A DNA stretch of 60,037 nt from a virus. Taxonomy: Duplodnaviria; Caudoviricetes. Made by a program: the position numbers and the translations under genes. The notes under the pieces were generated by a model. The model was not told the DNA's origin, did not search any database, and worked only from the letters and a program-made list of their open reading frames with translations. The stretch is from positions 1 through 60,037 of IMG/VR virus record IMGVR_UViG_3300025652_000072; one strand, given 5' to 3'. This document shows positions 3,483 to 57,189 of the stretch, piece after piece (within the stretch, counting starts at the first letter, position 1; each line of letters starts with the position of its first letter).

Positions 3483-3762
3483 CAGGAATAATCCAATGTG
3501 TTGACGTTAAGTACCCACAACTAGAGCATCCTACTGTACGTTTATCATCGTTTACTAGAAAAAACTTATTGCTTTCACATAGAGAGCATACGAGCACATC
3601 TACCTCTGTTTCTAAAAACGTACCTTTTTCTTGCTTTTTTTGTTTAAACGTAGCTTCTGCATATTTTTCTGCGTCACTAATGGTTTGTTTTGACGTAAAT
3701 GGTATGACATTGTTACCTACAGTGTCATGAACGGTGGGGTTTCCCTTTTTTTCCATGAACAT
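3472..3762 (-). CDS. Zn-ribbon protein
   Basis: CSLC...CSSC. Confidence 0.6.
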   Translation of the reverse strand: MFMEKKGNPTVHDTVGNNVIPFTSKQTISDAEKYAEATFKQKKQEKGTFLETEVDVLVCSLCESNKFFLVNDDKRTVGCSSCGYLTSTHWIIPDGQ

Positions 3763-4181
3763 ATCCTTGCTTTTTCGTTTATGTAATAATCGTGATAAGC
3801 CTGTATAGGATCACTACATTTGTACTCATCTGGCATCGCTTGCGGATGTTTTGTTACGCCCCTTGCTTTCAGCAATATAGGGGGACACCGTAAAATGGCA
3901 AGAACTGTTTCGCAAGCATGGACTTTTTCATACCTGTAAGTATACTCCTTGCACAACGCAATGCCTAACCTCCATAGCCAAATGTAGTTTTCTACTGTTT
4001 GTCCTGCCCATAACGTACATGGGTGTTTTGGATGTACAGGCAGGTAAGGCCCTTCGTTTTCATAACGCCAATGCACAGTAGATAACATTTGTGTGGTTTC
4101 TAGTGGCATCTTTACAACGTGCTTGTCACAATGGTACTTAGCACATTGGGTAACGTTATAATCCAGTAAAAAAATATTAAT
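3717..4181 (-). CDS. Pyrimidine-dimer DNA glycosylase-like protein (endonuclease V / Pyr_excise family); probable ATT start
   Basis: NIFLLD, CDKHVVKMPLETTQML, HPKHPCTLW, QAMPDEYK, AYHDYY motifs. Confidence 0.8.
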   Translation of the reverse strand: MNIFLLDYNVTQCAKYHCDKHVVKMPLETTQMLSTVHWRYENEGPYLPVHPKHPCTLWAGQTVENYIWLWRLGIALCKEYTYRYEKVHACETVLAILRCPPILLKARGVTKHPQAMPDEYKCSDPIQAYHDYYINEKARICSWKKRETPPFMTL

Positions 4182-4182
4182 G

Positions 4183-4347
4183 TTACGGCCTTTCGTCAAG
4201 ATGTTCGTGTTCGTTTACTAAATACGCAATAACTTGAGTAAAACTAGGTTTAAACCCAAAGCTAACTTCAAGGTGTTGTTGTAGACGTTGTAACTGTTCA
4301 TACAGTTCAAAACTAACGCCCACGTTTTTGTTTCTTGGCTTTGCCAT
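4183..4347 (-). CDS. Small putative ribbon-helix-helix-like DNA-binding protein, 54 aa; not in the ORF track
   Basis: Manual translation MAKPRNKNVGVSFELYEQLQRLQQHLEVSFGFKPSFTQVIAYLVNEHEHLDERP; AGAAAGGA RBS. Confidence 0.6.
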   Translation of the reverse strand: MAKPRNKNVGVSFELYEQLQRLQQHLEVSFGFKPSFTQVIAYLVNEHEHLDERP

Positions 4348-4415: not shown

Positions 4416-4961
4416 TTATTTACTCAAATTATGTAAGCGTATTATCATTTTTAATGCTCTGCTTACTTGTTTCTCGTGAGGGTACTTTTCCTTTAAATAC
4501 CGTATACCTCTATTCATTACATCTTCAGCAGATTTGTTGCCCTGAGTAATCAATTCATAACAATGTAGCACGAGTTCTAATTTATCTGCGGCATCACATG
4601 CTTTTGCCTCTTCTACTGTGATCGGTATAAACAGTTCACCAATACCGATAGAACTTTCAAAATCATTTTCTATACGTTTAAGTAGAGAGTGTACTTCTGA
4701 GTAATTCCATTTAGTTGTAGCAGGTAGATCACCTACCGCTATTTCAGCTACATCATGATACATCATATGTAACAGGCAGTTTTTACTAGCTTCAGGCCAA
4801 AGGGTATGGAGTATCACCATTGCTCGCCAAGTATGAGCAGCTACGTTTTGTCCATTAGTTAACTCTGGTCTTGTATGGTATCGGGTTACATGCCCACCTC
4901 TAATTTTTGCATACAGGTGTTTCAGGTTGGCGTTTTTGTGTGTTTTTCTTCTTTTTTCCAT
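4416..4961 (-). CDS. HD-domain (YfbR-like) deoxynucleotide phosphohydrolase
   Basis: VTRYH, NVAAH, HDVAE..GDLP, DAADKLE; GGAG RBS before ATG 4961. Confidence 0.85.
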   Translation of the reverse strand: MEKRRKTHKNANLKHLYAKIRGGHVTRYHTRPELTNGQNVAAHTWRAMVILHTLWPEASKNCLLHMMYHDVAEIAVGDLPATTKWNYSEVHSLLKRIENDFESSIGIGELFIPITVEEAKACDAADKLELVLHCYELITQGNKSAEDVMNRGIRYLKEKYPHEKQVSRALKMIIRLHNLSK

Positions 4962-6832
4962 AAATTCTCCGTTAAGGGTTGTTTTGCTTCCCCCCAATTA
5001 GGCCCAAACTCTGCATCAACTACGGAGGGAACTTCTAGCTTGACGCAGGTTTCCATTATCTCCGTAATTTTCTTAGCTTGGTCTTCACTTTCTACGGAGA
5101 CGTCTAGTTCATCATGTACTTGTATCATAGGCAACATGCCCTCTTCTGCCAAAGCTACCATCGCGGCTTTAGTTTGATCTGCGGCACTGCCCTGAATTAA
5201 CTTGTTTAATGCTTTGTATGTAAACGCCCTACGAATCGCAGGGCCATGTTCATTATATGCTTCTTGGTAGTTCATTGGTTTCCAACTGCCATACTTAGTT
5301 GGTTCCCATTTATCAAAACGGCACCGTCTGCCTAATACAGTACGGATAACACCTTTACTACTTGCACGATTAACAGCATAATTACTGAGTTCTCGTACAA
5401 ACGGTACTGAGCTATGGTACATAGCAAACAGCTCATTAGCATCGTCTATTTCTAAACCTAATGTTGCCGCCAGTTTTTTAGACCCCATACCATAGAATAA
5501 TCCTAGGTTTATGTCTTTAGCCTGTTTGCGTGGAACGCCCACAATGTCAGCCGCCATTTGGTGAAAGTCTGTGCGTGGGTCTTCATTGTACTGTTCAGCA
5601 AACGTATCAGCCCCTTTAAAGCCCATTAGCTTACTGTAATGAACAACTATGCGTGGTTCTTGGCTAGAGTAATCAAATGCCCCCCACAAGGCCCCTTCTT
5701 CGGGTAAAAACAGGCTTCGTATTAACGGCCCTATTTCAGGGTGACGAGCAGGTATTTGTTGCAGGTTCGGGTTACTATAACTGAATCGGCCTGTAACTGT
5801 ACCACCATCATCACTGCGTAGTGGGTGGAGCTCTGCATGTATCCTACCGTTTTGTTGGTGCTTTAAAATAGTTTCAATAAAAGTACCTCTTGCCTTTTGG
5901 TACTCTCTAGCTTCTACTATCATTTGTGGTACTTTGTGGGGGTGGTTAGTAAGGAACCCTTTAGTAAATGATGGAGCACTTGTCTTTTCGGTTTTATTAT
6001 AAGTAAGGTCTAACGCATCAAATGCTTTAGCTACACTTTCTGCGGCCCATATCTCTACGTCAACCCCTGTTTGCTTTTTTACTTCGGCAAGTAATTCTTG
6101 TTCTCTTTTAAGTAAATCGTTTTGTATTACTTCAGCTCTATTTAAATCTACCCTTACACCTCTTTGCCTCATAGGTATTATTGTTTTGAGAACTTTTAAC
6201 TCTAGTTCTACAATATCTTGTATATCCTCTTTTACTATTAACGATTTGAAAAATGTCCATAGTTTTAATGTCAAAGCGGCATCTTGTTCTGCATATGCCC
6301 CTACATAGGTTGCAGGGAGTTTATACATTTCGCTTTTAGCATTGATACCAAACGCATCAGCGGCCTCGCGTAGCTCTTTCTCTGACTTACGCTCTTGCAG
6401 GTAATCACGACCAATAGCATTTAACGCATAGCTAAATCTGTTTTCATCTAACAGGGGCGCAATAACCATTGTGTCAATGATTCGCCCTGAAACAGGCACA
6501 CCTTCTGCGAGCAACCACCCAACATCATAAGGAGCATTATGGAAAATATAATTCCTGTTAACCGAACATACATCTCGCAACCAATTCATTGTCATTTTAG
6601 GGTCTAAGTTAGAACCTATCTCGTGCCGTATGGGAAAGTACCATTGGTCACCCTGTACAGCAACGGCGATACCAATTATATGCCCATCTTTTCTAGGCCA
6701 ACCCGAACCCATTGTTGTAAGGTTTGGGTCTCTTGTTTCTAAATCTATAGCAACTTCTTTTGCTTCACTTAAATCAGGGTAACCATCCGGCACAACCCAT
6801 TCTACAGGTGGTTTAAACAGAGGATACTGCAT
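4922..6832 (-). CDS. polA: DNA polymerase family A with 3'-5' exonuclease
   Basis: DLET, HNAPYD, TGRFS..PNLQQIP, DYSSQEPR, RKQAKDINLGLFYG, IQGSAAD, VHDEL. Confidence 0.97.
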   Translation of the reverse strand: MQYPLFKPPVEWVVPDGYPDLSEAKEVAIDLETRDPNLTTMGSGWPRKDGHIIGIAVAVQGDQWYFPIRHEIGSNLDPKMTMNWLRDVCSVNRNYIFHNAPYDVGWLLAEGVPVSGRIIDTMVIAPLLDENRFSYALNAIGRDYLQERKSEKELREAADAFGINAKSEMYKLPATYVGAYAEQDAALTLKLWTFFKSLIVKEDIQDIVELELKVLKTIIPMRQRGVRVDLNRAEVIQNDLLKREQELLAEVKKQTGVDVEIWAAESVAKAFDALDLTYNKTEKTSAPSFTKGFLTNHPHKVPQMIVEAREYQKARGTFIETILKHQQNGRIHAELHPLRSDDGGTVTGRFSYSNPNLQQIPARHPEIGPLIRSLFLPEEGALWGAFDYSSQEPRIVVHYSKLMGFKGADTFAEQYNEDPRTDFHQMAADIVGVPRKQAKDINLGLFYGMGSKKLAATLGLEIDDANELFAMYHSSVPFVRELSNYAVNRASSKGVIRTVLGRRCRFDKWEPTKYGSWKPMNYQEAYNEHGPAIRRAFTYKALNKLIQGSAADQTKAAMVALAEEGMLPMIQVHDELDVSVESEDQAKKITEIMETCVKLEVPSVVDAEFGPNWGEAKQPLTENLWKKEEKHTKTPT

Positions 6833-6974
6833 TACTTTTCACTTTCATAGATAGTTTACATTTACAGCGAGGCCATTTGTTTTTTAAATTACGGAAAGTA
6901 ATTACTTTTTTATACTTTCCACATTCACAAACAGCTTCTACCTCTTTGTCCATGGGGTCGGGGTTATTTATCAT
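6813..6974 (-). CDS. Small Cys-rich (CEC...CKC) protein, ~53 aa; not in the ORF track
   Basis: Manual translation; bridges the gap between 6964..7266 and polA with short overlaps. Confidence 0.45.
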   Translation of the reverse strand: MINNPDPMDKEVEAVCECGKYKKVITFRNLKNKWPRCKCKLSMKVKSNAVSSV

Positions 6975-7266
6975 GCCCTAACATTTCTGCTTCCACTAAT
7001 AATAAGTACCTTCTTAAATCGCGTATGTCGTCTAAAATACCTTCTTCCCTTGGGTCTTTACGAATAGTTTCAAATATATCATAGTTTTCTTTTTTAGCTT
7101 GGTTTTCTATTCTATCCCATTTGCGGGCTAACATCATAAAAGCACCAGTGCCTCCACGTTGTTTCCAACTATTGCCATAACTTTGTTCTGCCACATGCAA
7201 GCCTTCTACATCGGCATGTGCTAAATCGTTTACCTTTGTAAGAATATTACTTAACTCACGTTTCAC
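6964..7266 (-). CDS. Nucleotide-modification-associated MazG-like protein (DUF1599/Nmad1-like)
   Basis: SYGNSWKQRG..G.FMMLARKWDRI...DDIRDLRRYLLL; located within a modification cluster. Confidence 0.7.
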   Translation of the reverse strand: MKRELSNILTKVNDLAHADVEGLHVAEQSYGNSWKQRGGTGAFMMLARKWDRIENQAKKENYDIFETIRKDPREEGILDDIRDLRRYLLLVEAEMLGHDK

Positions 7267-7267
7267 T

Positions 7268-8236
7268 TTACCATCTCCTCATTAGCCACTCTACACAAGC
7301 CTTACGCCATGCTAGGTCTTCAATGTTTTCGGCATGGCGTACTGCTTCATCTATATTTTTTTCCTTCCAAGCACCCCAAGATAAATCCATAGGTGTAAGC
7401 ACTTGATCAAAGTAAGAGTTAGTATATGTATTGGTTTCATTGTTCATCCACCGTTCTAACTCTTTATCAAAACAAGCAGGTTCATCAACCAATGGTTTAG
7501 GGTTGTAATGCCCACTATCACCTAAATGCAGGTAAGGGTCGTAATCGGGTTCAATATTTTTTACTTTTTCTAACGTATCCACGTAAGCGTGTAAGTTATT
7601 ACTAAATTGATAATATGTACCTACCGCGCAATCTATCCTTGCCGCCATATATTCTAACAGTATAGACATATGAACAGCGTTTGCTCCATACGCCCCCCAT
7701 ATCATATCATTGCTCCTATTACATACAGTCATGTTTAACGTGTCGTCACGAACCCAAAACATAATCTGCGTATTGCAGGGATAATCTTTACCATCGTTAT
7801 CTGTAGAAAAATCTTTTGTAGGATCCCACATACCAATAACTGTACGACGATCGTTTTCATAATGAAGCAGACGGTGGATAGCTACTTCTAGTTGATCAAA
7901 GCCGAACCAGTTTTTCCACCTATGTCCATATGCACCGTGGAAGGTTACGCCATCGTCACTGTAATTATTAATTCTGCCATTATACTTAGAAATCCAATCA
8001 ACATCATTTCTACCTGCTAACATCCAAAACGATTCCATTAAATGGAAATAAGGGTTAGCGTCACGCATAGGGTAAAACAATACTCTTTCCCTGCTATGGC
8101 TGTAAGAAGTTACTACAGGACAAGCAAACTCTAATGCTTTACCATTGCGTGTGTCTACCTCAACACCTTTAGTTTCTAATGCCTGTACTGCTAGGTACAA
8201 TGCTTCACTTACATTTCTTGCACTTATATACTGCAT
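7268..8236 (-). CDS. Thymidylate-synthase-fold dUMP hydroxymethylase
   Basis: RDANPYFHLMESFWMLAG, YSDDG..FHGAYGHR, catalytic PC, RSNDMIWGAYGAN (Asn indicates dUMP specificity), NLHAY; adjacent to a 5-hmdU kinase. Confidence 0.85.
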   Translation of the reverse strand: MQYISARNVSEALYLAVQALETKGVEVDTRNGKALEFACPVVTSYSHSRERVLFYPMRDANPYFHLMESFWMLAGRNDVDWISKYNGRINNYSDDGVTFHGAYGHRWKNWFGFDQLEVAIHRLLHYENDRRTVIGMWDPTKDFSTDNDGKDYPCNTQIMFWVRDDTLNMTVCNRSNDMIWGAYGANAVHMSILLEYMAARIDCAVGTYYQFSNNLHAYVDTLEKVKNIEPDYDPYLHLGDSGHYNPKPLVDEPACFDKELERWMNNETNTYTNSYFDQVLTPMDLSWGAWKEKNIDEAVRHAENIEDLAWRKACVEWLMRRW

Positions 8237-8282
8237 TTAAAGCCTTTCTGAGCTCTCTAAGGTTTATAGGGGGGGCTAACTA

Positions 8283-9596
8283 CTAAAAACTAAGTTGAGT
8301 GCCTGTATGGGCGTTAAAATGGGGTGGTATATTGAAAAAGTCTAAGTTTTTGTCACAAGAGTTTTTTAACCCCACACTTGGGACACCTATCGGCATTGTC
8401 ACCCACCTATTAGCATCAGCTATTAAATCTATATACTCTTGTGCTACTGTTTTCATTTCAAACATTTTTAGTAAAGAAATGTTATTTGCACGGATACTTT
8501 CCCACTGATAACGGTTGTTCATGCTATCATTAATTATACTTGCAAACTCTTTAGGTGTAGCTGTATGGGGAACCTCTATAAAATTTTCTCCACCATAAAA
8601 TATCTCGCTATTTTTCATACCTAAATCGGTAGCAACTGGTACAGCACCCATCATCATAGCTTCTACAGTTGTTCTATTAAAATGCGCTCCGTACCCAGAA
8701 TATTTTTTAGACCAACTAGGGTCTATCTGTAACTTACGGTCTTTTAGTATTTCAAGTACATGGCTGTTTGGAATAGTGCCTACATACTCCATACCATTTG
8801 CAAGTGCGACATCCCAAATTTTATTACCGTCTGTATCAAAATACTGTGGCTTACACTTTTCTTTACTGGTCATATACCTGTACTCAATACCTGCACCACC
8901 AATACACTTGGTCACTTTTCTAAGAGGGTTTGAATCATACTCGTCGATGTAAGGTATGGCACGAATAAGTGTATCAACTCGTTTCCACGCTTTAAATACT
9001 TGTATCGCGGCAAACCCCTCTCTACGTTCCCAATCTATTTCAGTAACCGTATTGCTAAGATCAAAAGGGTTTACAATCATTTTCCTAGGTATGTCAAGAT
9101 TTACCGCTGAATGAAAAGCACTTTCATGAACACATACAGCCCCATGAAACCATTTAGAAACCAATAACAAATGAGGGTATAGCTTGGGTAAATTACCGTC
9201 ATGTATAATAGCTATGTTTTTAGTACCATTATTATATAACTCTACCCATTCGTCTACCCCTTTATTATCTTTGTTCAGGGTAGGTACAGGGATGTGCCAA
9301 AGTACAGCATCATACTTACTACAGTTCTCCCTAAACCGTTGCCTTACCCTATCATTTAAATAAGGATATTTGCGTAGGTTAGCCCAACCTTTTGCTTGAT
9401 GGTGACTGTAGCCTGTGCCAACTTTATCATAGTCACCCCCTATTAGTTTAAAACGTTCTTTAATTTCGTGTTTGGGAACAAGCATACAAAAGTCTACCTC
9501 ATGCCCTAATTCTTTTAACCCTTTTGCTAAAAACTCAACATGGTTAATGATACCGCCATAATCTTGTATTTGGTACAAGGTCATTAATATTTTCAT
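8283..9596 (-). CDS. GT-B fold glycosyltransferase, putative DNA-modifying
   Basis: MKILM...GGIINHVEFLAKGLKELGHEVD N-terminus; WKRVDTLIRA; TTVEAMMMGAVPVATDLG. Confidence 0.85.
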   Translation of the reverse strand: MKILMTLYQIQDYGGIINHVEFLAKGLKELGHEVDFCMLVPKHEIKERFKLIGGDYDKVGTGYSHHQAKGWANLRKYPYLNDRVRQRFRENCSKYDAVLWHIPVPTLNKDNKGVDEWVELYNNGTKNIAIIHDGNLPKLYPHLLLVSKWFHGAVCVHESAFHSAVNLDIPRKMIVNPFDLSNTVTEIDWERREGFAAIQVFKAWKRVDTLIRAIPYIDEYDSNPLRKVTKCIGGAGIEYRYMTSKEKCKPQYFDTDGNKIWDVALANGMEYVGTIPNSHVLEILKDRKLQIDPSWSKKYSGYGAHFNRTTVEAMMMGAVPVATDLGMKNSEIFYGGENFIEVPHTATPKEFASIINDSMNNRYQWESIRANNISLLKMFEMKTVAQEYIDLIADANRWVTMPIGVPSVGLKNSCDKNLDFFNIPPHFNAHTGTQLSF

Positions 9597-10507
9597 TGTA
9601 CAACTCCTTGCGGTAAGGGCTCACTGCTCTGTGTAAACTTACTGCGAGGTTTACCTTGGCCTAACCTTACTCGTTCGTACTTATCCCATTCACACAAGCT
9701 ATGCTCTATAGTACGCATATCTACTTGCCCAACAGGAACATGGTCATCTACGGAGAAAGCGGCTAAAGCATTCAGTTGTTTCATTTCTTCGTTGGCTACA
9801 TATTGAGTCATGCTTTTTGTTAAGGGCCTGTCCCAAATTCTATTCAACCCACGTTTTGCTCCAGGACCTGCATTGGCCCATGAGAACCTATCTACGGCGT
9901 TGTTCAAAACAGGTGTGTAGTTTAAATCAGTTACAACTTCGTAAGACATAAACCCACCACCTCCCCAACCTCTGTACTGTGATAACTTTCTGTGGGTAGT
10001 TTGCAAAGATTTAGACATACCTGCGGTAGCGGCAATGTCTCCTACATATTTATATATCGGTTTAAGGAAATGGTCAACAACAACATCTGCTTTAGGTAAT
10101 TTCAACCCTTGGTTTGTAATGATATACGCACCAGTGAAAGTACGCTTACCATCAGCTATCCTGTTTTTTATAATGTTTTTGGTACGCTCAGTGTCCCAAT
10201 CAAATTTGGTTGATGAAAGGGTAACCCAACCATGTTCCTCTGCAAATTCAGTTGTGCCTACCATCCTGAACAAACAACAGTTGAAAATTATTTCACTCCA
10301 GTTTTTATTATCGTGAGGTTTAGTCCAGTTGTTACGCATCCAAAGGGTAACCCTATCGTTTTCACGGAAAGGGTTTGTAAACTTATACTCTTGGAGTATG
10401 GGATCTTTTGTCCATTCAGACCTTGGTACACCCATGTTTCTCCGTTGGTATATGGCGTGTCTTTCATTTATCCAATAGAAAAACCTTTCTACGTTTTCCT
10501 TGTTCAT
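9593..10507 (-). CDS. 5-hmdU DNA kinase (5-HMUDK / aGPT-Pplase1 family)
   Basis: FFYWINERHAIY, WTKDPILQEYKFTNPFRENDR, FTGAYII, GFMSYEVVTDL, GPGAKRGL, IEHSLCEWDKY. Confidence 0.9.
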   Translation of the reverse strand: MNKENVERFFYWINERHAIYQRRNMGVPRSEWTKDPILQEYKFTNPFRENDRVTLWMRNNWTKPHDNKNWSEIIFNCCLFRMVGTTEFAEEHGWVTLSSTKFDWDTERTKNIIKNRIADGKRTFTGAYIITNQGLKLPKADVVVDHFLKPIYKYVGDIAATAGMSKSLQTTHRKLSQYRGWGGGGFMSYEVVTDLNYTPVLNNAVDRFSWANAGPGAKRGLNRIWDRPLTKSMTQYVANEEMKQLNALAAFSVDDHVPVGQVDMRTIEHSLCEWDKYERVRLGQGKPRSKFTQSSEPLPQGVVQ

Positions 10508-11191
10508 TTACTTTTCTCCTAGTGGTTGGAAGTGTGGGTTATCAACTTTTATAGCTCCGGCTTTTACAGCTATCCTAATATCTGTTTTGCCTCCTGGAGC
10601 AGGGTCTAACTTACGCAGGGCAGTTATCGCTTCGCCTACTGTTTGGGAAGCTAGAACAACCTGCATATTACGATAACGGTTTGTGCCTTGTTTAATAGGA
10701 GGCTCGTCCATTAACTTAATAATTTTGCATTCATTGCCCCACCCTTGTTTCACATCTACTATTTTTCTAATGGCATCAAAAGCTTGCCCTACAGTGGGTT
10801 CATCTTTTTCCATTTCATCTAGCTCTAATGTTATTCTAGTATGTGGGTCTACATCTGGTTGCTCTGTAACTACCCCAACGCTTGAAGTACTGCCTTTAAC
10901 AAACCTATTCATTTTTGTTTCCTCTTCTGGTTTCCAATATTTAGCTTTATCATGGGTAAGAACCCAAAAATTTTCTGCAGAACTATGTTTACCAAATGGT
11001 TCACAAACAGAAGCTATTTCCTCTTTTGTAAACAAATGGTTTAAACGGTCTACTGTTTCTTTACCATCAAACACATAAGAACATTCATTAACAGCCTTAC
11101 ATGATTTTACAGCTTTTAAGGTTTTAAATTTATAAAACAAAAACGGAGGCCCATCACTTCCAGGAACTCCGTCACATATTGCATAAAACAT
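10508..11191 (-). CDS. Hypothetical protein at the head of the modification operon (start ATG 11191)
   Basis: AGAAAGGA RBS; stop directly abuts the 5-HMUDK start. Confidence 0.7.
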   Translation of the reverse strand: MFYAICDGVPGSDGPPFLFYKFKTLKAVKSCKAVNECSYVFDGKETVDRLNHLFTKEEIASVCEPFGKHSSAENFWVLTHDKAKYWKPEEETKMNRFVKGSTSSVGVVTEQPDVDPHTRITLELDEMEKDEPTVGQAFDAIRKIVDVKQGWGNECKIIKLMDEPPIKQGTNRYRNMQVVLASQTVGEAITALRKLDPAPGGKTDIRIAVKAGAIKVDNPHFQPLGEK

Positions 11192-11265
11192 TTTTCTTCC
11201 TTTCTTAGAAGAAGTACCAGTGTGTACATTAACGTATACACACTGGTTAGACAACGGCTACTTTA

Positions 11266-15862: not shown

Positions 15863-16660
15863 CTAAAACGGTACTTGGTCGTCAGGATCTGACCCCATAC
15901 TACTAGAGCCATCGTTTACTTGCACATCACCTGCTTTTACTGATTTAGCAAAAGCAACTGCCATTTCAAAGAACCCCTTATCCATATCGTCAGATAGGTT
16001 TAAGGCACGTTCCCTAGCTATTTCCCAACCATACCAACTACCTTTATCGTTTTGCTCTGGTACGCTTGTAATTTTGTATATCTGGGACATTAACGGCAAT
16101 GTATACAATCCGTTCTTGCCTTGGGCAGTTAGCGATTGTGCTTGCGTCAACCACTTACGGCCCTTCTTTAATTGTGTAGAAGCCATCGTTACCAATGCTT
16201 TTTGTGGGCCTAACTCAGGATGTAACATTAACACGTAGAACTGTGCAGTGTTGGTCAACTGGTTGCCGTTTGGTAGTAGGTCTTGCCCTTGGTCACTACG
16301 CACCACAGTTTTTACAATAGGGTCATCTGGGGTGTATGAACCTACATATCCACCACCTTCTTCCCTACCGCGCCACTCTACAAAGCGACGATTGTAATGG
16401 CAGGGTATCACATAAATACCTTCCTTTTCTGCTTCGTACACTTCGTTCAGTACAGTATTAAATATCATACCTGCTTCCGCACCTTCCACATACGCACCAT
16501 CACGTTTTTTAACTTGTGGGCTAACATCGGCAAGCACTCGTAAGAACGGAATAGCTAGGTCTTCTGTTTTTACCTCGCTGAAACCCTCACCTTGGAACTG
16601 CTCAAAACCTTCGTACATTGCAACTTCATTATTTGCTTTCTTAGCTACTTCTTGTGCCAT
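15863..16660 (-). CDS. Putative ssDNA-binding protein
   Basis: Position in the replication block; acidic tail ending DPDDQVPF. Confidence 0.6.
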   Translation of the reverse strand: MAQEVAKKANNEVAMYEGFEQFQGEGFSEVKTEDLAIPFLRVLADVSPQVKKRDGAYVEGAEAGMIFNTVLNEVYEAEKEGIYVIPCHYNRRFVEWRGREEGGGYVGSYTPDDPIVKTVVRSDQGQDLLPNGNQLTNTAQFYVLMLHPELGPQKALVTMASTQLKKGRKWLTQAQSLTAQGKNGLYTLPLMSQIYKITSVPEQNDKGSWYGWEIARERALNLSDDMDKGFFEMAVAFAKSVKAGDVQVNDGSSSMGSDPDDQVPF

Positions 16661-16664
16661 CTTT

Positions 16665-17219
16665 CTATCCTTTTTTCGGTTTAGTTATTTTGGTTTTTTC
16701 ACCTATATACAACCCAAACAAATCAGCAGGGACATTGTTGCCTTGTTCAAATTGGTCTTTTACAAATGCCTTTAAGGTCATTGGCTCTACCCACTTTTTA
16801 GTGTTCACCGCCATACCCTTATGTATCAAGTCATCTGCAAACTGTTTAGCTTGTTCTTCTTGTCCGCGAACAAAGGTCGTTGCTACTTGGTTCTTTATTA
16901 AATCACCAAAATCATTTGCAACTAACCAACCAAATGCTTCATCTGATTTATCTTTACTTATTGAAGCACTGTAAAATTTACCAACGCTTACACGAGAACC
17001 ATCTTCTAATACAAGCTCACTTATACTATGTTCTGCCATAGCTGAAGGTAACTGTTCTTCCGCTATTTCACGCAGACTTCGTTTAGCTTGTTTTAGCTCA
17101 TCCTCTAACTGTGCTACTCGTTGTTCTAATGTAAGTTGTACATTGGCAAGTTTACTCACTAAACTTAACCCTTGTTCGTCCACCGTTTTAAGATCGGTGG
17201 CGGCATCTTCAAAATCCAT
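16665..17219 (-). CDS. Conserved replication-block hypothetical protein
   Basis: N-terminal coiled coil; AFGWL...GDLIKN, VEPMTLKAFV. Confidence 0.7.
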   Translation of the reverse strand: MDFEDAATDLKTVDEQGLSLVSKLANVQLTLEQRVAQLEDELKQAKRSLREIAEEQLPSAMAEHSISELVLEDGSRVSVGKFYSASISKDKSDEAFGWLVANDFGDLIKNQVATTFVRGQEEQAKQFADDLIHKGMAVNTKKWVEPMTLKAFVKDQFEQGNNVPADLFGLYIGEKTKITKPKKG

Positions 17220-17231
17220 TGTTAACCCTTT

Positions 17232-17426
17232 CTATTGGAATAATGTGTTGTATTCGTGGTCATATAAAAATTCTCCGAAACTGGAGCCATATGAACTAGC
17301 TATTTTCCACTCTTGACGAAAATGGTCTGCATCATCACCTTGCAGTAAAAAGCTCCAACCTGCTTCTCGTTCTGCAACTTCTATTGCAAACCCTTTATCT
17401 TCCATTGTGTATCCACCTATAATCAT
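17232..17426 (-). CDS. Small hypothetical protein
   Basis: TAGAAAGGGTTAA leader, also present before the next gene. Confidence 0.55.
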   Translation of the reverse strand: MIIGGYTMEDKGFAIEVAEREAGWSFLLQGDDADHFRQEWKIASSYGSSFGEFLYDHEYNTLFQ

Positions 17427-17444
17427 AACTATTAACCCTTTCTA

Positions 17445-17768
17445 TTAGTTAAAGTTTGCTTCAAGGGGGTAGTACTTGTTTTCTAGCCTATCCCATTTAA
17501 GCATTTTGTAACGGCCCATATTCTGCCGTGATGCAACGCTCGCAGCTAATGCAATAATTACAGGATCACCAGAAAGTAATAGGTAATCGTCATCTGTAAA
17601 CTTGCTCAACTTACGAGTTAGTTGTTTTATTAATGGCTGAGTAGAATAACTCGCCTGTTCAGAAGCAGGAACAAGTATTTCTATATCACCGAAGGTAACG
17701 GCATCGCTCAAATCGCGACCTCGCATTTCTTGAACTATGTACACTGTCATGCCTTTCTCCACATGCAA
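17445..17768 (-). CDS. Hypothetical protein (start probably ATG 17750)
   Basis: DDYLLLSGDPV motif; GGAGAAAGG RBS. Confidence 0.7.
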   Translation of the reverse strand: MHVEKGMTVYIVQEMRGRDLSDAVTFGDIEILVPASEQASYSTQPLIKQLTRKLSKFTDDDYLLLSGDPVIIALAASVASRQNMGRYKMLKWDRLENKYYPLEANFN

Positions 17769-18091: not shown

Positions 18092-19531
18092 ATGCGTTAC
18101 AAATTTAAATACCAACCATATAAGCATCAGCTAGATGCTTTAGAAAAGTCGTGGGATAAAACCTTTTTTGCCTTGTTTATGGACATGGGTACAGGCAAAT
18201 CTAAAGTATTAATAGATACGATTTCTATGCTTTACGATAAAGGTAAAATAGATTCTGCTCTGATTATCGCACCCAAAGGTGTGTACCGTAACTGGGAAAG
18301 AAAAGAACTGCCCACCCATTTACCCGATCATATACAGGCAAACATTGTTGTATGGTCGCCAGAAAAAACAAAAAAGAAACAAGCAGAGTTAGCTACGTTA
18401 AATGAACCGTCAGATAAACTGCAAATATTTTTAATGAATGTAGAAGCATTGTCCAGTAGCAGAGGAGTATGGTCTGCCTCACAATTTATACTGTGCCATA
18501 AAACAATGCTTGCTGTAGATGAAAGTACAACCATTAAATCTAGAACAGCGAACAGAACAAAAAGCCTTATAAAAATATCAAGAAACGCCCCTTACCGTAG
18601 GATACTTACAGGGTCACCTGTTACTAAATCACCGTTAGACCTATACACACAATGCGAGTTTTTAGAAGAGTATGTATTAGGGCATTCTTCGTTCTGGACG
18701 TTCCAAAACCGTTATGCAAAATTGATACGCAAAACAATGGGAGCGCATTCATTTAACCATATTGTAGGATACCAAAACTTAGAAGAGTTAAATGGTATAA
18801 TAGAACCGTTTTCATTTAGAGTGCGTAAAGAAGATTGTTTAGACCTACCTGACAAAGTGTATACAAAGCGCAGTGTAGAGTTAACTAAAGAACAACGTGT
18901 TCTGTACGATCAAATGAAACGTAATGCTGTATCCTTTATAGAAAACGAAGGCATTATGTCTGCCTCTACCGTGCTAACTCAAATACTAAGGTTGCAACAA
19001 GTATGTTCTGGTTTTGCTAAACTGGAAGATGGGCGAATGATAAAAGTTCCCAACAACAAGTTGCCTGAGTTACTATCTGTATTAGAGGAAACAGATGGTA
19101 AGGTAATAATTTGGGGTAACTTTACACATGACCTAGAATTGATACAGGAAGCTCTTATAAAAACATATGGGGCAGAAACAGTAGAGCTGTTCTATGGTAA
19201 AACTCCGGCAGAAGAACGGCAGTTAATTGTAGAGCGGTTCCAAGACCCTAACGACCCATTGCGGTTTTTTGTAGGGCAACCCCGAACAGGGGGCTACGGA
19301 CTTACTCTTACAGAAGCGCATACAGTTATATACTACAGCAACGGCTATGACCTTGAAATAAGGTTACAGAGCGAAGATAGAGCGCATCGTATAGGACAAA
19401 CAAATAAAGTTACTTATATAGATATAACAGCAGAAAATACTGTAGACCAAAAAGTTATCCAAGCCCTGCGAAGCAAAATAGATATAAGTACAAAGGTACT
19501 AGCTGAAGGGTACAAAGAGTGGATAATCTAA
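18092..19531 (+). CDS. SNF2-family helicase
   Basis: MDMGTGKS, VDES, LTGSP, QSEDRAHRIGQ. Confidence 0.95.
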   Translation: MRYKFKYQPYKHQLDALEKSWDKTFFALFMDMGTGKSKVLIDTISMLYDKGKIDSALIIAPKGVYRNWERKELPTHLPDHIQANIVVWSPEKTKKKQAELATLNEPSDKLQIFLMNVEALSSSRGVWSASQFILCHKTMLAVDESTTIKSRTANRTKSLIKISRNAPYRRILTGSPVTKSPLDLYTQCEFLEEYVLGHSSFWTFQNRYAKLIRKTMGAHSFNHIVGYQNLEELNGIIEPFSFRVRKEDCLDLPDKVYTKRSVELTKEQRVLYDQMKRNAVSFIENEGIMSASTVLTQILRLQQVCSGFAKLEDGRMIKVPNNKLPELLSVLEETDGKVIIWGNFTHDLELIQEALIKTYGAETVELFYGKTPAEERQLIVERFQDPNDPLRFFVGQPRTGGYGLTLTEAHTVIYYSNGYDLEIRLQSEDRAHRIGQTNKVTYIDITAENTVDQKVIQALRSKIDISTKVLAEGYKEWII

Positions 19532-20166
19532 TACTTGGGGATAGCTCTGTTGTAATTAAAACATTTGCAGATGAGCAGTTTGATACAGTGTTTACCTCAC
19601 CCCCATACAATAGAAAAAGGAACGATAAGTATGAAGATTTTACTGATATTTCTGATAATTATTTCAATTTTCTTGTTGAATCGATAGAACAATGTCTACG
19701 AGTATGTAAGGGTAATGTGTTTTATAACCTTCAAAAAAACTTTTACAATCGAGTAGAAATATATAAAGTTTTTGGACATTTTGCAGAACGTATAATAGAA
19801 ACAATCGTTTGGCATAAATCAAACCCCATGCCAAACCCCCATGTCATTAACTCTTATGAATACATTTTAGTATTGAGTAATAAAAACAAATCATTAAAAG
19901 CAAACAAAACATATACAAAGAACCATTTTTCAACAGCCGTTTACTCAGAGAACCCATACAAAAAACAGCATAGAGCAGTCATGAACCCTAAAGCTGTAGA
20001 GTATATACTGAAGTCTTTTTGTAAACCAAACGAAAGTGTGCTTGACCCTTTTATGGGGACAGGAACGACAGGTGTTGTTTGTAAACAGTTTGGTATGACA
20101 TTTACAGGTATTGAGTTAGTAGAAGAGTATTACAACTTATCTAAACAACGGTTACTAACCCATTAA
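19519..20166 (+). CDS. Beta-class N4-C/N6-A DNA methyltransferase
   Basis: TSPPY (motif IV) precedes DPFMGTGTT (motif I) and GIEL. Confidence 0.9.
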   Translation: MDNLILGDSSVVIKTFADEQFDTVFTSPPYNRKRNDKYEDFTDISDNYFNFLVESIEQCLRVCKGNVFYNLQKNFYNRVEIYKVFGHFAERIIETIVWHKSNPMPNPHVINSYEYILVLSNKNKSLKANKTYTKNHFSTAVYSENPYKKQHRAVMNPKAVEYILKSFCKPNESVLDPFMGTGTTGVVCKQFGMTFTGIELVEEYYNLSKQRLLTH

Positions 20167-56243: not shown

Positions 56244-56505
56244 AACATTTCTCCTCAATATTCAATAATTTCTTATATATCGAAAATTTTTCAAGGACAA
56301 TGAACCTATAATCAATAACAACAATAAAGGGGGGTAGGTCAACTGTTTAAGGACTCATATAGTTGACTTTTTGTGAAATGTTTTTGGATCATGTAGAAAT
56401 GTTCAGAACAGGGTAAAGGGTGCTACTAATACCACCCTTTTTGCTCAGGGGGGGCGGGCAAAAACCGTGCCAGTTTTACCGCACCAAATTTTAGGGGTAC
56501 CTTAT

Positions 56506-56534
56506 AAAAAAGGGGCGGGTAAAAAACCCGCCCC
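56506..56534 (-). terminator. Rho-independent terminator of the TC-free gene
   Basis: ggggcgggt / acccgcccc stem with a T6 run on the minus strand. Confidence 0.8.
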
Positions 56535-56545
56535 AAATTAAAACC

Positions 56546-57037
56546 CTACTTTTTAGGGGCCTTGGTTTGTGGCTTAACTACTAGCTGTACTTGTGGTACG
56601 CCCCATGTACTTGCGCTACGGCTAAACCCGCCGTTAAGCAATGCCAGTAAAACAATAGGTTTTACCGCACTTTGGCCGCCGCTTGGTATACCCAACGCGC
56701 CCTTGCTTTTACAGGCGTTTAACCAAGCACCTAATGTTAGCTGGCCATTAAGTGCGTGCCATAACATAGTTTGGCGCACGCCGTATTGCTTGGCATTAAA
56801 ACCACCTAGCGTTTTACTAGGGGCCTTGCCGCCTTTGCCCATTGTAAAACTAGCAAAGGTAACGCCGTTGCATGGTACTATTGCAACGTTGTTAGGGTTG
56901 CCGCCAGCGTGGGTAGCTAGCCATTGGTTTACAGCTGCATAATTAAATGCCCCTGTTTTGGTAAGTAGTGGGCCTTTAAGTGTAGCACCTGTAACAACCG
57001 TGTTACTTGGTGCAGTAGTGGTATTTGCTTGTGCCAT
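56546..57037 (-). CDS. Asp/Glu-free basic protein (163 aa), paralog of 687..1193
   Basis: Own promoter, AAAGGGTT RBS and terminator; homologous blocks to 687..1193. Confidence 0.85.
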   Translation of the reverse strand: MAQANTTTAPSNTVVTGATLKGPLLTKTGAFNYAAVNQWLATHAGGNPNNVAIVPCNGVTFASFTMGKGGKAPSKTLGGFNAKQYGVRQTMLWHALNGQLTLGAWLNACKSKGALGIPSGGQSAVKPIVLLALLNGGFSRSASTWGVPQVQLVVKPQTKAPKK

Positions 57038-57100
57038 TTTTTTAACCCTTTAAATGGTGGGGCCTTGCCCCGTTAACCGCCAGCGGTTGCTGGCATGCCT

Positions 57101-57131
57101 ATTATATAACACCCCATTAAATGTAATACAA
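57101..57131 (-). promoter_or_regulatory. Sigma70-like promoter of the TC-free gene
   Basis: Minus strand TTGTAT...TGTTATATAAT with an AT-rich upstream tract. Confidence 0.55.
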
Positions 57132-57189
57132 CCCCATACATGCACTTTTTTTAATTTATTTTATCACGGTATTTTTGGGCCTTGCCCGC

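What the first reader, a model, noticed from the sequence alone, without database searches (positions are those of the whole stretch)
6964..10507. Thymidine hypermodification cluster pairing 5-hmdU DNA kinase with a glycosyltransferase and no amino-acid transferase
Seen: tightly packed 5-HMUDK, GT-B glycosyltransferase, dUMP hydroxymethylase and MazG-like genes directly upstream of polA. Established: in phages M6, ViI and PhiW-14, hmdU replaces T, 5-HMUDK phosphorylates it in DNA, and an amino-acid:DNA transferase (aGPT-Pplase2) installs the substituent. No such transferase, PLP enzyme or radical SAM gene is recognisable here; a glycosyltransferase overlaps the kinase stop instead. Inference: the product is a sugar-phosphate-linked or base-J-like glycosylated hmU, possibly an uncharacterised nucleoside.
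Basis: partly seen in the sequence, partly recalled or inferred. Interest (0 to 1): 0.88.

Follow-up and report, generated by a model that had tools for sequence, protein, structure and literature searches.

The report
Phage gene set for sugar-coated thymine
A marine phage carries a compact gene set that most likely replaces thymine with hydroxymethyluracil and then attaches a sugar to it, but the gene read as a DNA kinase is a kinase-less helper enzyme of unknown role, so the chemistry differs from the textbook pathway.

Summary
The four genes are real and tightly packed on the minus strand. One key label is wrong. The 304-aa "5-HMUDK" (9593-10507) matches only Pfam PF18723 (HMUDK_hel, the former aGPT-Pplase clade 1). 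It is an all-helical, DNA-glycosylase-like protein with no Walker A motif. The true kinase family (PF18748) and the amino-acid:DNA transferase family (PF18724) are absent from this complete 60-kb genome and from 5 of 5 complete relatives. M6 and Pam3 served as positive controls. The GT-B glycosyltransferase and the dUMP-type hydroxymethylase are confirmed. "MazG-like" is not.

In 66 related viral loci with adequate flanks, the slot next to the helical gene holds TAGT, this GT-B, an AGT-like protein, an unknown family or radical SAM. A kinase appears once. Of 55 GT-B loci, 53 carry the helical gene.

Best reading: hmU replaces T and is glycosylated directly, without phosphate. The helical Cys enzyme's role stays open.

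The phage is HTVC023P-type. A 2022 paper already noted TS + PPlase1 (+ glucosyltransferase) there. This scan flagged look-alike modules on other DNA (8 notes shown).

In passing: a 719-bp TC/GA-free island, shared to varying degree with module-bearing relatives and absent from two module-less ones.

The parts
9593..10507 (-). Stand-alone aGPT-Pplase clade-1 protein (Pfam HMUDK_hel), 304 aa. HhH-DNA-glycosylase-like helical enzyme with invariant Cys272-Glu273-Lys276. It is not a kinase.
   Evidence: PF18723 at 1.9e-50, 172 bits. No Walker A motif. Model pLDDT 94.8. Best structural match is PUGT 8z2n, Z 11.3, rmsd 4.2, 230 residues aligned, followed by QNG1 and OGG/Mag glycosylases. Invariant residues from 46 sequences.
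8283..9596 (-). GT-B (GT4-like) glycosyltransferase, 437 aa, translationally coupled to the gene above (ATGA overlap). Predicted DNA hmU glycosyltransferase.
   Evidence: PF13692 at 27.4 bits. Model pLDDT 92.2. Foldseek: HepE 1.2e-13, PimA, BshA; T4 alpha-GT 1y6f at rank 42. 53 of 55 related GT loci with flanks carry the helical gene. Overlap confirmed.
7268..8236 (-). Thymidylate-synthase-fold enzyme, predicted dUMP hydroxymethylase, 322 aa.
   Evidence: PF00303 at 1.9e-22 and phrog_5131 at 1.8e-108. Cys and Asn aligned to TS motifs, whereas MilA has Asp at the Asn position. 43-46% identity to M6/YuA/Bordetella-phage homologs.
6964..7266 (-). Conserved 100-aa acidic helical protein of unknown family.
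   Evidence: No significant Pfam, PHROG or PDB match: 0 families at E<=0.01, chance-level rows only at laxer limits. ESM Atlas lead to DUF1599, 17 of 30 hits. The family was found in 88 of 102 loci in the first local scan, including Pam3 gene 54. 32 invariant columns in 13 sequences.
6813..6974 (-). 53-aa ORF between the module and polA, conserved in relatives.
   Evidence: tblastn hits at 56-64% identity in 17 of 19 related loci. The other two loci end before this position.
4922..6832 (-). Family A DNA polymerase with 3'-5' exonuclease.
   Evidence: PF00476 at 1.2e-60 and PF01612 at 1.1e-07. 52-56% identity to HTVC023P-type phage polymerases.
4416..4997 (-). HD-domain YfbR-like 5'-deoxynucleotidase directly after polA. 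The longest ORF overlaps polA by 76 nt, so the true start is probably internal.
   Evidence: PF12917 at 4e-11 and PF13023 at 2.1e-08. Local HMM seeded from M6 gp59, PhiJL001 gp25 and Pam3 gene 53 gives 2.7e-68.
10508..11254 (-). 248-aa protein of unknown function directly upstream of the helical gene, conserved in position.
   Evidence: No Pfam or PHROG match. Homologs found in 59 loci.

Best explanation
This is a kinase-less thymidine hypermodification module of an HTVC023P-type marine phage.

Step 1 (inferred from homology): the TS-fold enzyme makes 5-hydroxymethyl-dUMP. The HD 5'-deoxynucleotidase, and perhaps the 100-aa protein, bias the nucleotide pool. The phage polymerase then puts hmdU in place of dT.

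Step 2 (inferred from context): after replication, the GT-B enzyme transfers a sugar from a host NDP-sugar straight onto the 5-CH2OH of hmU in DNA. This gives an O-glycosylated hmU. It would be alpha-linked if the enzyme is retaining like its GT4 structural neighbours. No phosphate intermediate is involved.

Step 3 (open): the clade-1 aGPT-Pplase is a conserved, Cys-dependent, base-flipping-type enzyme that acts on the same hmU DNA independently of which glycosyltransferase sits beside it. It is not the kinase. I favour a role in choosing or processing a subset of hmU sites over a role as an obligate subunit of the GT.
For: No kinase and no AADT:
- PF18748 has 0 matches at E<=10 and PF18724 matches only inside the helical gene itself, in a genome rated 100% complete.
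- Walker A motifs occur in 3 of 78 ORFs, none of them a small kinase.
- Local HMMs run with --max found only noise.
- Both families are absent at E<=1 from 5 of 5 relatives that are 94-100% complete.
- The same searches find both families in M6 and Pam3.

Link between GT and the module:
- 53 of 55 GT-B loci with at least 1.2 kb on both sides carry the helical gene, within 300 bp in 46 of them. 52 of 55 carry the TS homolog. GT identity runs down to 28% and the gene orders differ.

The slot holds DNA glycosyltransferases:
- Among 66 of 80 helical-gene loci with adequate flanks the counts are TAGT 19, TAGT + radical SAM 14, GT-B 13, AGT-like 11, unknown family 3, radical SAM + unknown family 3, none 2, kinase 1, AADT 0. 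The TS homolog is present in 65 of 66.
- 5 of 5 checked TAGT labels pass Pfam PF20691.
- TAGT is the family of the T6 DNA glucosyltransferase (PMC13390438, passages).

The cultured phage PhiJL001 has the same logic: helical gene, TAGT, Nmad5 and TS homolog, with no kinase anywhere in its genome.

The helical gene does not track the GT family. There are at least 21 label changes on a 93-sequence tree, and L051 (GT-B) differs from L049/L050 (AGT-like) by branch lengths under 0.01.
Against: - There is no chemical evidence. Nothing here shows that the DNA is modified at all.
- The GT's acceptor is untested. Its closest solved structures act on lipids and small molecules, and T4 alpha-GT is no closer than they are.
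- The model leaves the invariant Cys272/Glu273/Lys276 of the helical protein without a defined reaction. In every characterised case, aGPT-Pplase-type chemistry uses phosphorylated hmU (PMC8989533 and PMC11472151, passages). A host kinase or an unrecognised phage kinase therefore cannot be excluded.
- 2 of 55 GT-B loci (L153, L161) lack the helical gene.
- The related loci are the best 80 of at least 576 hits and are mostly one marine lineage, so the counts are not independent events.
- The 'AGT-like' label rests on one language-model look-up.
Confidence: 0.55

Rival explanations
1. The clade-1 aGPT-Pplase is itself the group-transfer enzyme. It activates hmU through Cys-C6 addition and loss of water, with no kinase, and installs a small hydroxyl- or amine-bearing nucleophile. 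The GT then glycosylates that linker. The product would be a linker-plus-sugar base of the SP-15/YerA41/Carin-5 kind, not a direct O-glycoside of hmU.
For: - Cys272, Glu273 and Lys276 are invariant in 46 sequences.
- Cys272 aligns with the catalytic Cys247 of M6 gp51 in two weak comparisons, and the weak ADDT Pfam hit covers it.
- The best structural match is the clade-2 enzyme PUGT.
- In SP10 the only aG/PT-PPlase listed is a clade-1 domain fused to the kinase (Table 3 of PMC5889632, passage).
- The helical gene is the constant partner while the tailoring enzymes vary.
- Linker-plus-sugar thymidines exist in other phages (PMC12686479, passages).
Against: - No precedent was seen for aGPT-Pplase chemistry without a phosphate leaving group.
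- M6 gp55 (clade 1) was dispensable for group transfer in vitro (PMC8989533, passage).
- Sequence similarity to clade 2 is marginal (hhalign probability under 1%).
- TAGT and AGT-family enzymes in other phages act directly on hydroxymethyl-pyrimidines or on sugars.
Confidence: 0.17
2. One reading: the 304-aa protein phosphorylates hmU in DNA, and the GT builds a sugar-phosphate-linked or phosphate-dependent product.
For: The Pfam name 'HMUDK_hel' contains the word kinase. The gene is translationally coupled to the GT.
Against: - PF18723 is the helical, glycosylase-like domain, not the P-loop domain. M6 carries the two on separate proteins: gp55 is PF18723 and gp54 is PF18748.
- The protein has no Walker A motif.
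- Its fold is HhH-glycosylase-like.
- PF18748 is absent from the genome and from 5 of 5 complete relatives.
Confidence: 0.03
3. The glycosyltransferase does not act on DNA. It might act on a host envelope precursor, a virion protein or a metabolite. In that case the TS homolog and the clade-1 enzyme alone determine the DNA modification.
For: The nearest solved structures are lipid and small-molecule GT4 enzymes. HTVC023P and HTVC027P carry other group-1 GTs among their structural genes. Earlier literature read pelagiphage GTs as possible LPS modifiers (PMC9599517, passage).
Against: - The GT sits inside the nucleotide and replication module, coupled to the helical gene.
- 53 of 55 GT-B loci keep that neighbour, down to 28% GT identity and in different gene orders.
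- The same slot holds TAGT in relatives, a family of DNA glycosyltransferases.
- The structural-region GTs of HTVC023P and HTVC027P do not match this family at E<=1e-3.
Confidence: 0.1
4. There is no hypermodification. The TS homolog is an ordinary thymidylate synthase and the neighbours are unrelated auxiliary genes.
For: PHROGs and most GenBank records name the family 'thymidylate synthase'. The Asn is also the TS state.
Against: - The best solved match is a hydroxymethylase (MilA, 1.3e-15), ahead of any TS.
- The closest phage homologs, at 43-46% identity, belong to M6/YuA-type phages. M6 DNA carries hmdU-derived bases (PMC5889632).
- The TS homolog co-occurs with the clade-1 gene in 65 of 66 loci.
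- An HD 5'-deoxynucleotidase sits next door.
Confidence: 0.04

Closest known systems
M6 / ViI / PhiW-14 / PaMx11 thymidine hypermodification pathway (dUMP hydroxymethylase, 5-HMUDK PF18748, AADT/aGPT-Pplase2 PF18724, PLP / radical SAM / FAD tailoring, plus a clade-1 aGPT-Pplase of unassigned role)
   Same: A TS-fold hydroxymethylase 43-46% identical to the M6/YuA-type one. A clade-1 aGPT-Pplase 33% identical to M6 gp55. An HD nucleotidase. The same position just upstream of polA.
   Different: No P-loop kinase, no AADT and no PLP enzyme. A glycosyltransferase takes the place of the variable tailoring genes. The phosphate-activated substitution that defines the known pathway therefore cannot run as described.
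TS + aG/PT-PPlase1 'partner AMGs' of HTVC023P-type pelagiphages (PMC9599517, mSystems 2022; passages read)
   Same: Same phage lineage: polA 52-56% and TerL 59-62% identical to HTVC023P, HTVC027P, 023Pt_psg01 and DSL-LC04. Same pairing near PolA. [quoted passage not shown]
   Different: In the passages I read, the paper treats the system as M6-like. I saw no remark on the missing kinase and AADT, on the GT-B family found here, or on turnover of the GT slot. Its supplements could not be seen.
T-even phage hmC glucosylation (dCMP hydroxymethylase, then alpha-GT, beta-GT or TAGT acting on DNA)
   Same: The same logic of pre-replicative hydroxymethyl-pyrimidine followed by direct post-replicative O-glycosylation. 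GT-B fold as in T4 alpha-GT (1y6f, Foldseek E 7.5e-10, TMq 0.58). TAGT and an AGT-like family sit in the same slot in relatives.
   Different: The base is uracil-derived (Asn), not cytosine-derived. An extra conserved Cys enzyme (clade 1) is present that T-even phages do not need. The GT shows no tblastn match in 50,697 phage records.
Base J (JBP1/2 dioxygenase + JGT) of kinetoplastids
   Same: The predicted product class is a glycosylated 5-hydroxymethyluracil in DNA.
   Different: Here hmU would come from a TS-fold enzyme before replication, not from oxidation of T in DNA. By recall, JGT is a GT-A inverting enzyme that gives a beta-glucoside. This GT is GT-B and GT4-like.
Alphaproteobacteria phage PhiJL001 gp19-gp24 (cultured)
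   Same: A stand-alone PF18723 gene, a glycosyltransferase and a TS homolog upstream of polA. No PF18748 match in the whole genome, and the only PF18724 hit is a weak one inside gp19.
   Different: The GT is TAGT (GT-A type, PF20691). Nmad5 is present. It belongs to a different virus family (Mesyanzhinovviridae). I found no report on its DNA chemistry.

Membership tests
5-hmdU DNA kinase (5-HMUDK, Pfam PF18748 HMUDK_HMUD1) | P-loop kinase domain matching PF18748 | tested here: not met
   0 matches at E<=10 in the whole genome. A local HMM run with --max gave a best E of 0.3 in a structural ORF. The control M6 gp54 scores 65 bits.
5-hmdU DNA kinase (5-HMUDK, Pfam PF18748 HMUDK_HMUD1) | Walker A motif in the candidate protein | tested here: not met
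   No [AG]xxxxGK[ST] in the 304-aa protein. The motif occurs in only 3 of 78 ORFs: the UvrD helicase and two large ORFs.
aGPT-Pplase clade 1 (Pfam PF18723 HMUDK_hel) | Full-length match above the curated cut-off | tested here: met
   172.3 bits against a cut-off of 25, residues 6-283 on profile positions 4-277 of 281. All 120 listed homologs carry PF18723.
aGPT-Pplase clade 1 (Pfam PF18723 HMUDK_hel) | Helix-hairpin-helix DNA-glycosylase-like fold | tested here: met
   VIA-align gave 57 of 698 chains at Z>=5; the 48 best-scoring entries among the 50 shown (Z 5.3-11.3) are PUGT, QNG1 and HhH glycosylases. Top match is 8z2n at Z 11.3, rmsd 4.2, 230 residues aligned. Caveat: helical models often reach Z around 13 by chance, and Foldseek alone gave no E<=0.001.
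aGPT-Pplase clade 1 (Pfam PF18723 HMUDK_hel) | Co-occurrence with a TS-fold dUMP hydroxymethylase | tested here: met
   65 of 66 related loci with adequate flanks, and this window.
Amino-acid:DNA transferase (AADT / aGPT-Pplase clade 2, Pfam PF18724) | Match above the curated cut-off | tested here: not met
   18.2 bits against a cut-off of 26.2, partial, residues 188-277 only.
Amino-acid:DNA transferase (AADT / aGPT-Pplase clade 2, Pfam PF18724) | Catalytic cysteine (Cys247 in PUGT and M6 gp51) | tested here: inconclusive
   The invariant Cys272 aligns with gp51 Cys247 in hhalign, but at probability under 1%.
Amino-acid:DNA transferase (AADT / aGPT-Pplase clade 2, Pfam PF18724) | Supply of 5-phosphomethyl-dU by a partner kinase | tested here: not met
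   No kinase gene in the genome. A host kinase is not excluded.
GT-B glycosyltransferase, GT4-like (Pfam Glycos_transf_1 clan) | Two-Rossmann-domain GT-B fold and a group-1 GT signature | tested here: met
   PF13692 at 27.4 bits against 27; PF00534 at 24.3 bits is below its cut-off of 26.4. At least 500 Foldseek matches at E<=0.001, led by HepE, PimA and BshA. Model pLDDT 92.2.
DNA hydroxymethyl-pyrimidine glycosyltransferases (T4 AGT/BGT, TAGT) | DNA-borne hydroxymethyl base as acceptor | not testable with these tools
   Only context is available: slot sharing with TAGT and AGT-like genes and 53 of 55 co-occurrence with the helical gene.
dUMP hydroxymethylase (TS superfamily) | TS fold with catalytic Cys and uracil-specifying Asn | tested here: met
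   YPCNTQ aligns with PCH, and GAN aligns with PFN of solved TS chains. MilA has Asp at the Asn position.
dUMP hydroxymethylase (TS superfamily) | Hydration rather than reduction of the exocyclic methylene | not testable with these tools
   Inferred from 43-46% identity to the homologs of M6/YuA-type phages and from the best PDB hit being a hydroxymethylase.
   No significant match: 0 Pfam families at E<=0.01; at E<=5 one chance-level row (E 0.18); 8 chance-level families among 13 members (best E 0.026); PF07659 gave 0 matches at E<=10 in the genome. The profile against PDB gave only a chance-level row at E 0.52. The ESM Atlas gives a DUF1599 lead, 17 of 30 hits.
Base J pathway | JBP-type thymidine dioxygenase | not tested
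   No dedicated search was made. None appeared among the 39 window ORFs that I scanned against Pfam, of 78 selected plus one alternative ORF.

The most novel reading that the evidence does not exclude
The clade-1 aGPT-Pplase is a kinase-independent, cysteine-dependent DNA enzyme that selects hmU at TpC steps. It prepares or edits those sites for a hot-swappable glycosyltransferase slot. HTVC023P-type phages that carry the module would thereby diversify the sugar on their DNA by cassette exchange. They would also keep one recoded, TC/GA-free 'starter' gene that escapes their own modification. Under this reading the 719-bp island shows the dinucleotide context of a still unknown base.
Probability: 0.18. 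Interest if true: 0.85.

Novelty: new variant of a known kind. Interest (0 to 1): 0.62.

Why it matters
- **Ecological reach.** HTVC023P-type phages infect SAR11. If the module-bearing members carry a glycosylated hmU, that base would be present in an ocean-wide phage lineage. It would also affect how well such phages are sequenced and counted.
- **An open enzyme role.** In the papers I could read, clade-1 aGPT-Pplase had no assigned function. These kinase-less genomes isolate it from the kinase/AADT route, and a cultured phage (PhiJL001) offers the same setting for experiments.
- **Turnover of the tailoring slot.** At least four enzyme families exchange next to a nearly unchanged neighbour. 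This is a compact natural example of counter-defence diversification.
- **Annotation error.** The Pfam name 'HMUDK_hel' invites calling a non-kinase a kinase. At least two other notes in this scan make the same call.

Tried and rejected
- **Complex prediction.** Complex prediction on the helical protein plus the GT, with alignments A2 and A1, returned no verdict (score 0.00). It is not used either way.
- **Foldseek on the helical model.** No match at E<=0.001. VIA-align on the same candidates gave the glycosylase list.
- **'MazG-like' label.** Tested by Pfam at lax thresholds, PHROGs, PF07659 on the genome, a 13-sequence profile against PDB, and Pfam on 13 family members. Only chance-level rows came back. 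The label is rejected as unsupported, not disproved.
- **Clade 1 versus clade 2 by profile.** Compared against M6 gp51 alone and against 7 clade-2 sequences. The -glob run was meaningless. The local run aligned only 39 columns ending on the Cys, at probability 0.8%.
- **Phage-collection searches.** blastn of the whole region found one 160-bp match. tblastn of the GT found none.
- **Gene-context look-ups.** I used the search for related loci instead, as the tool's message allowed.
- **Literature.** Searches found no paper describing chemistry for a kinase-less PPlase1 + GT module. Iyer et al. 2013 (PMC3763556) is not held; by recall it may already discuss TAGT/aGPT-Pplase contexts. The RDJLPhi1 paper has no relevant words. 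Supplements of all papers were closed, so Data Set S1 and Figs S4-S6 of PMC9599517 and the supplementary figures of PMC8989533 may hold relevant detail.
- **Weak hit in HTVC027P.** One hit to the helical-protein HMM (E 7.7e-4) was not followed up.
- **Steps not run.** No sequencing-run search and no read laying were done.

Full report
**What is there.** The window is a whole viral record of 60,037 bp, rated 100% complete. On the minus strand, 10507 to 4416 reads in this order:
- a 304-aa protein (9593-10507);
- a 437-aa protein (8283-9596);
- a 322-aa protein (7268-8236);
- a 100-aa protein (6964-7266);
- a 53-aa ORF;
- polA (4922-6832);
- an HD-domain protein (4416-4997).

The first two genes share ATGA, with an AAGGAG ribosome-binding site 8 nt upstream.

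**The 'kinase' is not a kinase.** The 304-aa protein matches Pfam PF18723 'HMUDK_hel' over its whole length (172 bits) and matches no kinase family. It has no Walker A motif. In phage M6 the three activities sit on separate proteins:
- gp54 is PF18748, the P-loop 5-hmdU DNA kinase;
- gp51 is PF18724, the amino-acid:DNA transferase;
- gp55 is PF18723.

The window protein is 33% identical to gp55. GenBank records call this family 'aGPT-Pplase clade 1'. In SP10 it is fused to the kinase (Table 3 of PMC5889632, passage), which probably explains the Pfam name.

PF18748 has 0 matches at E<=10 in the genome. PF18724 matches only weakly, inside the same gene. Local HMMs run without filters over all six frames found nothing else. 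The same Pfam searches find both families in M6 and Pam3, and neither in 5 of 5 relatives that are 94-100% complete.

**What the helical protein looks like.** A model built from 46 sequences (pLDDT 94.8) aligns best with PUGT, the clade-2 glycinyltransferase of PaMx11 (8z2n; Z 11.3, rmsd 4.2 over 230 residues). Next come the queuine-salvage enzyme QNG1 and many HhH DNA glycosylases. Foldseek alone was not significant, and helical models often reach such Z values by chance, so this is fold-level support only.

Sixteen columns are invariant, among them G214-P215-G216 and C272-E273-K276. Two weak profile comparisons place C272 on Cys247 of M6 gp51. Cys247 is the catalytic residue in PUGT (PMC11472151, passages). 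The family is therefore probably an enzyme that attacks C6 of a 5-substituted uracil. M6 gp55 was dispensable for glycine transfer in vitro (PMC8989533, passage). I found no paper that assigns the clade a function.

**The other genes.**
- *GT.* Its model (pLDDT 92.2) is a GT-B fold closest to GT4 retaining enzymes such as HepE, PimA and BshA. T4 alpha-glucosyltransferase lies in the same score range.
- *TS homolog.* It aligns its Cys and Asn with those of solved thymidylate synthases, whereas the CMP hydroxymethylase MilA has Asp at the Asn position. Its closest phage relatives are the homologs of M6/YuA-type phages.
- *HD protein.* It is YfbR-like.
- *100-aa protein.* It belongs to a strongly conserved family with no detectable relative in Pfam, PHROGs or the PDB. 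'MazG-like' is unconfirmed.

**Comparative evidence.** I searched the viral collection with the GT alignment and obtained 70 loci at 28-62% identity.
- Of the 55 loci with at least 1.2 kb on both sides, 53 carry the helical gene, within 300 bp in 46.
- 52 of the 55 carry the TS homolog.
- Gene orders differ among the distant ones.

I then searched with the helical-protein alignment. 576 of 595 candidate stretches were confirmed and the best 80 were kept. Of those, 66 have adequate flanks. Their neighbouring tailoring genes are:

| Neighbour | Loci |
|---|---|
| TAGT | 19 |
| TAGT + SPASM radical SAM | 14 |
| This GT-B family | 13 |
| 320-364-aa family (language model places it with T4-type alpha-glucosyltransferases; a lead only) | 11 |
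| Unknown 332-353-aa family | 3 |
| That unknown family + radical SAM | 3 |
| None (L048 has the GT-B further upstream; L075 has nothing) | 2 |
| Kinase | 1 |
| AADT | 0 |

I checked these labels with Pfam on samples:
- 5 of 5 TAGT-labelled ORFs passed PF20691.
- 3 of 3 radical SAM/SPASM-labelled ORFs passed.
- Of 4 GT-B-labelled ORFs, 2 passed a group-1 GT model, 1 was weak and 1 had no hit.

On a tree of 93 distinct helical proteins the neighbour type changes at least 21 times. One GT-B locus (L051) and two AGT-like loci (L049, L050) have almost identical helical proteins. The helical gene, the TS homolog, the 100-aa gene, polA and the HD gene thus form a constant frame, and the glycosyltransferase is an exchangeable cassette. 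The cultured phage PhiJL001 shows the same logic with TAGT and has no kinase in its genome.

**Reading.** The most economical mechanism is the T-even logic applied to uracil: hmdUMP is made before replication, hmdU is incorporated, and it is then O-glycosylated on the DNA by whichever GT occupies the slot.

The role of the helical enzyme is the real open point. Its constancy beside unrelated GT families argues against a tight, family-specific complex. It argues instead for an independent action on hmU DNA. A rival reading, which I hold at about 0.17, is that it performs a kinase-independent substitution at the 5-methylene and the GT decorates the group it installs.

**What is already known.** The phage is of the HTVC023P type. 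A 2022 study of 80 such genomes reported TS and aG/PT-PPlase1 as co-located 'partner' genes in all members of clades V, VIII and IX. [quoted passage not shown] It interpreted the system by analogy with M6.

A 2023 preprint mined about 25,000 GT-containing viral contigs, many of them next to ThyS homologs (10.1101/2023.12.21.572611, passages). So the gene association is in print.

In my searches I did not find:
- a statement that the kinase and AADT are missing;
- this GT-B family;
- the turnover of the slot;
- any chemistry for the product.

Iyer et al. 2013 and all supplements could not be read. This scan had also flagged look-alike modules on other DNA: 8 notes were shown, and look-alike stretches occur in 42 windows.

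**Seen in passing.** Following a note on this genome, I confirmed a 719-bp stretch, 56445-57164, with no TC or GA dinucleotide on either strand. The next longest such gap is 66 bp and the genome mean is 38 per 400 bp. It covers a 163-aa gene.

| Genome | Module | Longest TC/GA gap | Ratio to rough expected maximum |
|---|---|---|---|
| Window | yes (GT-B) | 719 bp | 7.9 |
| G002 | yes (TAGT) | 733 bp | 8.6 |
| G003 | yes (AGT-like) | 424 bp | 5.2 |
| G001 | yes (GT-B) | 274 bp | 3.1 |
| G004 | yes (AGT-like + FkbM) | 167 bp | 2.1 |
| G005 | yes (TAGT) | 153 bp | 1.8 |
| HTVC023P | no | 87 bp | 1.1 |
| HTVC027P | no | 80 bp | 1.0 |

The excess appears whatever GT family the relative carries. 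Neither module-less phage has the helical, TS, GT, HD or 100-aa genes in my local HMM scan. Six genomes against two, all related, is only a lead. It does suggest a TpC-specific process tied to the module.

**Verdict.** This is a new variant of a known kind of system. It is of real but not exceptional interest, and a cultured phage is available for the decisive chemistry.

Noticed in passing
window 56445-57164: A 719-bp stretch with no TC or GA dinucleotide on either strand. The next longest gap is 66 bp and the genome mean is 38 per 400 bp. It covers the 163-aa ORF 56546-57037(-), a paralog of 687-1193. In five module-bearing relatives the longest TC/GA gaps are 733, 424, 274, 167 and 153 bp, whatever GT family they carry. 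In HTVC023P and HTVC027P, which lack the module, the longest gaps are 87 and 80 bp.
   Followed up: partly
L024-L103, between the helical gene and the TS homolog: The slot is a variable cassette. It holds TAGT, TAGT + SPASM radical SAM, GT-B, an AGT-like family, an unknown 332-353-aa family, or once a P-loop kinase (L080, PF18748 at 25.2 bits, below cut-off). L055 adds an FkbM methyltransferase.
   Followed up: yes
L051 versus L049 and L050: The helical proteins are nearly identical (tree end branches 0.009, 0 and 0.007), yet they sit next to different glycosyltransferase families (GT-B versus AGT-like). This implies a very recent cassette swap.
   Followed up: partly
L166 and L169: Distant relatives carry both a GT-B and a TAGT gene next to the helical gene, which may mean two sugars are added. 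L164 has GT-B plus radical SAM.
   Followed up: no
window 4416-4997 (-): An HD YfbR-like 5'-deoxynucleotidase lies directly after polA. The longest ORF overlaps the end of polA by 76 nt.
   Followed up: yes
window 18092-20166 (+): The only long plus-strand genes in this part of the genome are an SNF2-type helicase (PF00176 at 2.7e-25) and an N6/N4 DNA methylase (PF01555 at 3.2e-33). The phage may therefore methylate its DNA as well.
   Followed up: no
window 3717-4199 (-): A weak match to the T4 endonuclease V-type pyrimidine dimer DNA glycosylase family (PF03013, 24 bits against a cut-off of 23). The gene is conserved at 66-81% identity in relatives.
   Followed up: no
window 15863-17768 (-): Three consecutive genes match the families named after cyanophage Pam3 gp34, gp33 and gp32 (PF23977, PF23984, PF23992). 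Pam3 itself carries a full M6-type set, with kinase, AADT, PLP enzyme and radical SAM.
   Followed up: partly
L203 962-1891 (HTVC023P gp77) and L204 47265-48212 (HTVC027P gp80): The module-less cultured relatives carry group-1 glycosyltransferases among late genes. These do not match the GT-B family of this window at E<=1e-3.
   Followed up: partly
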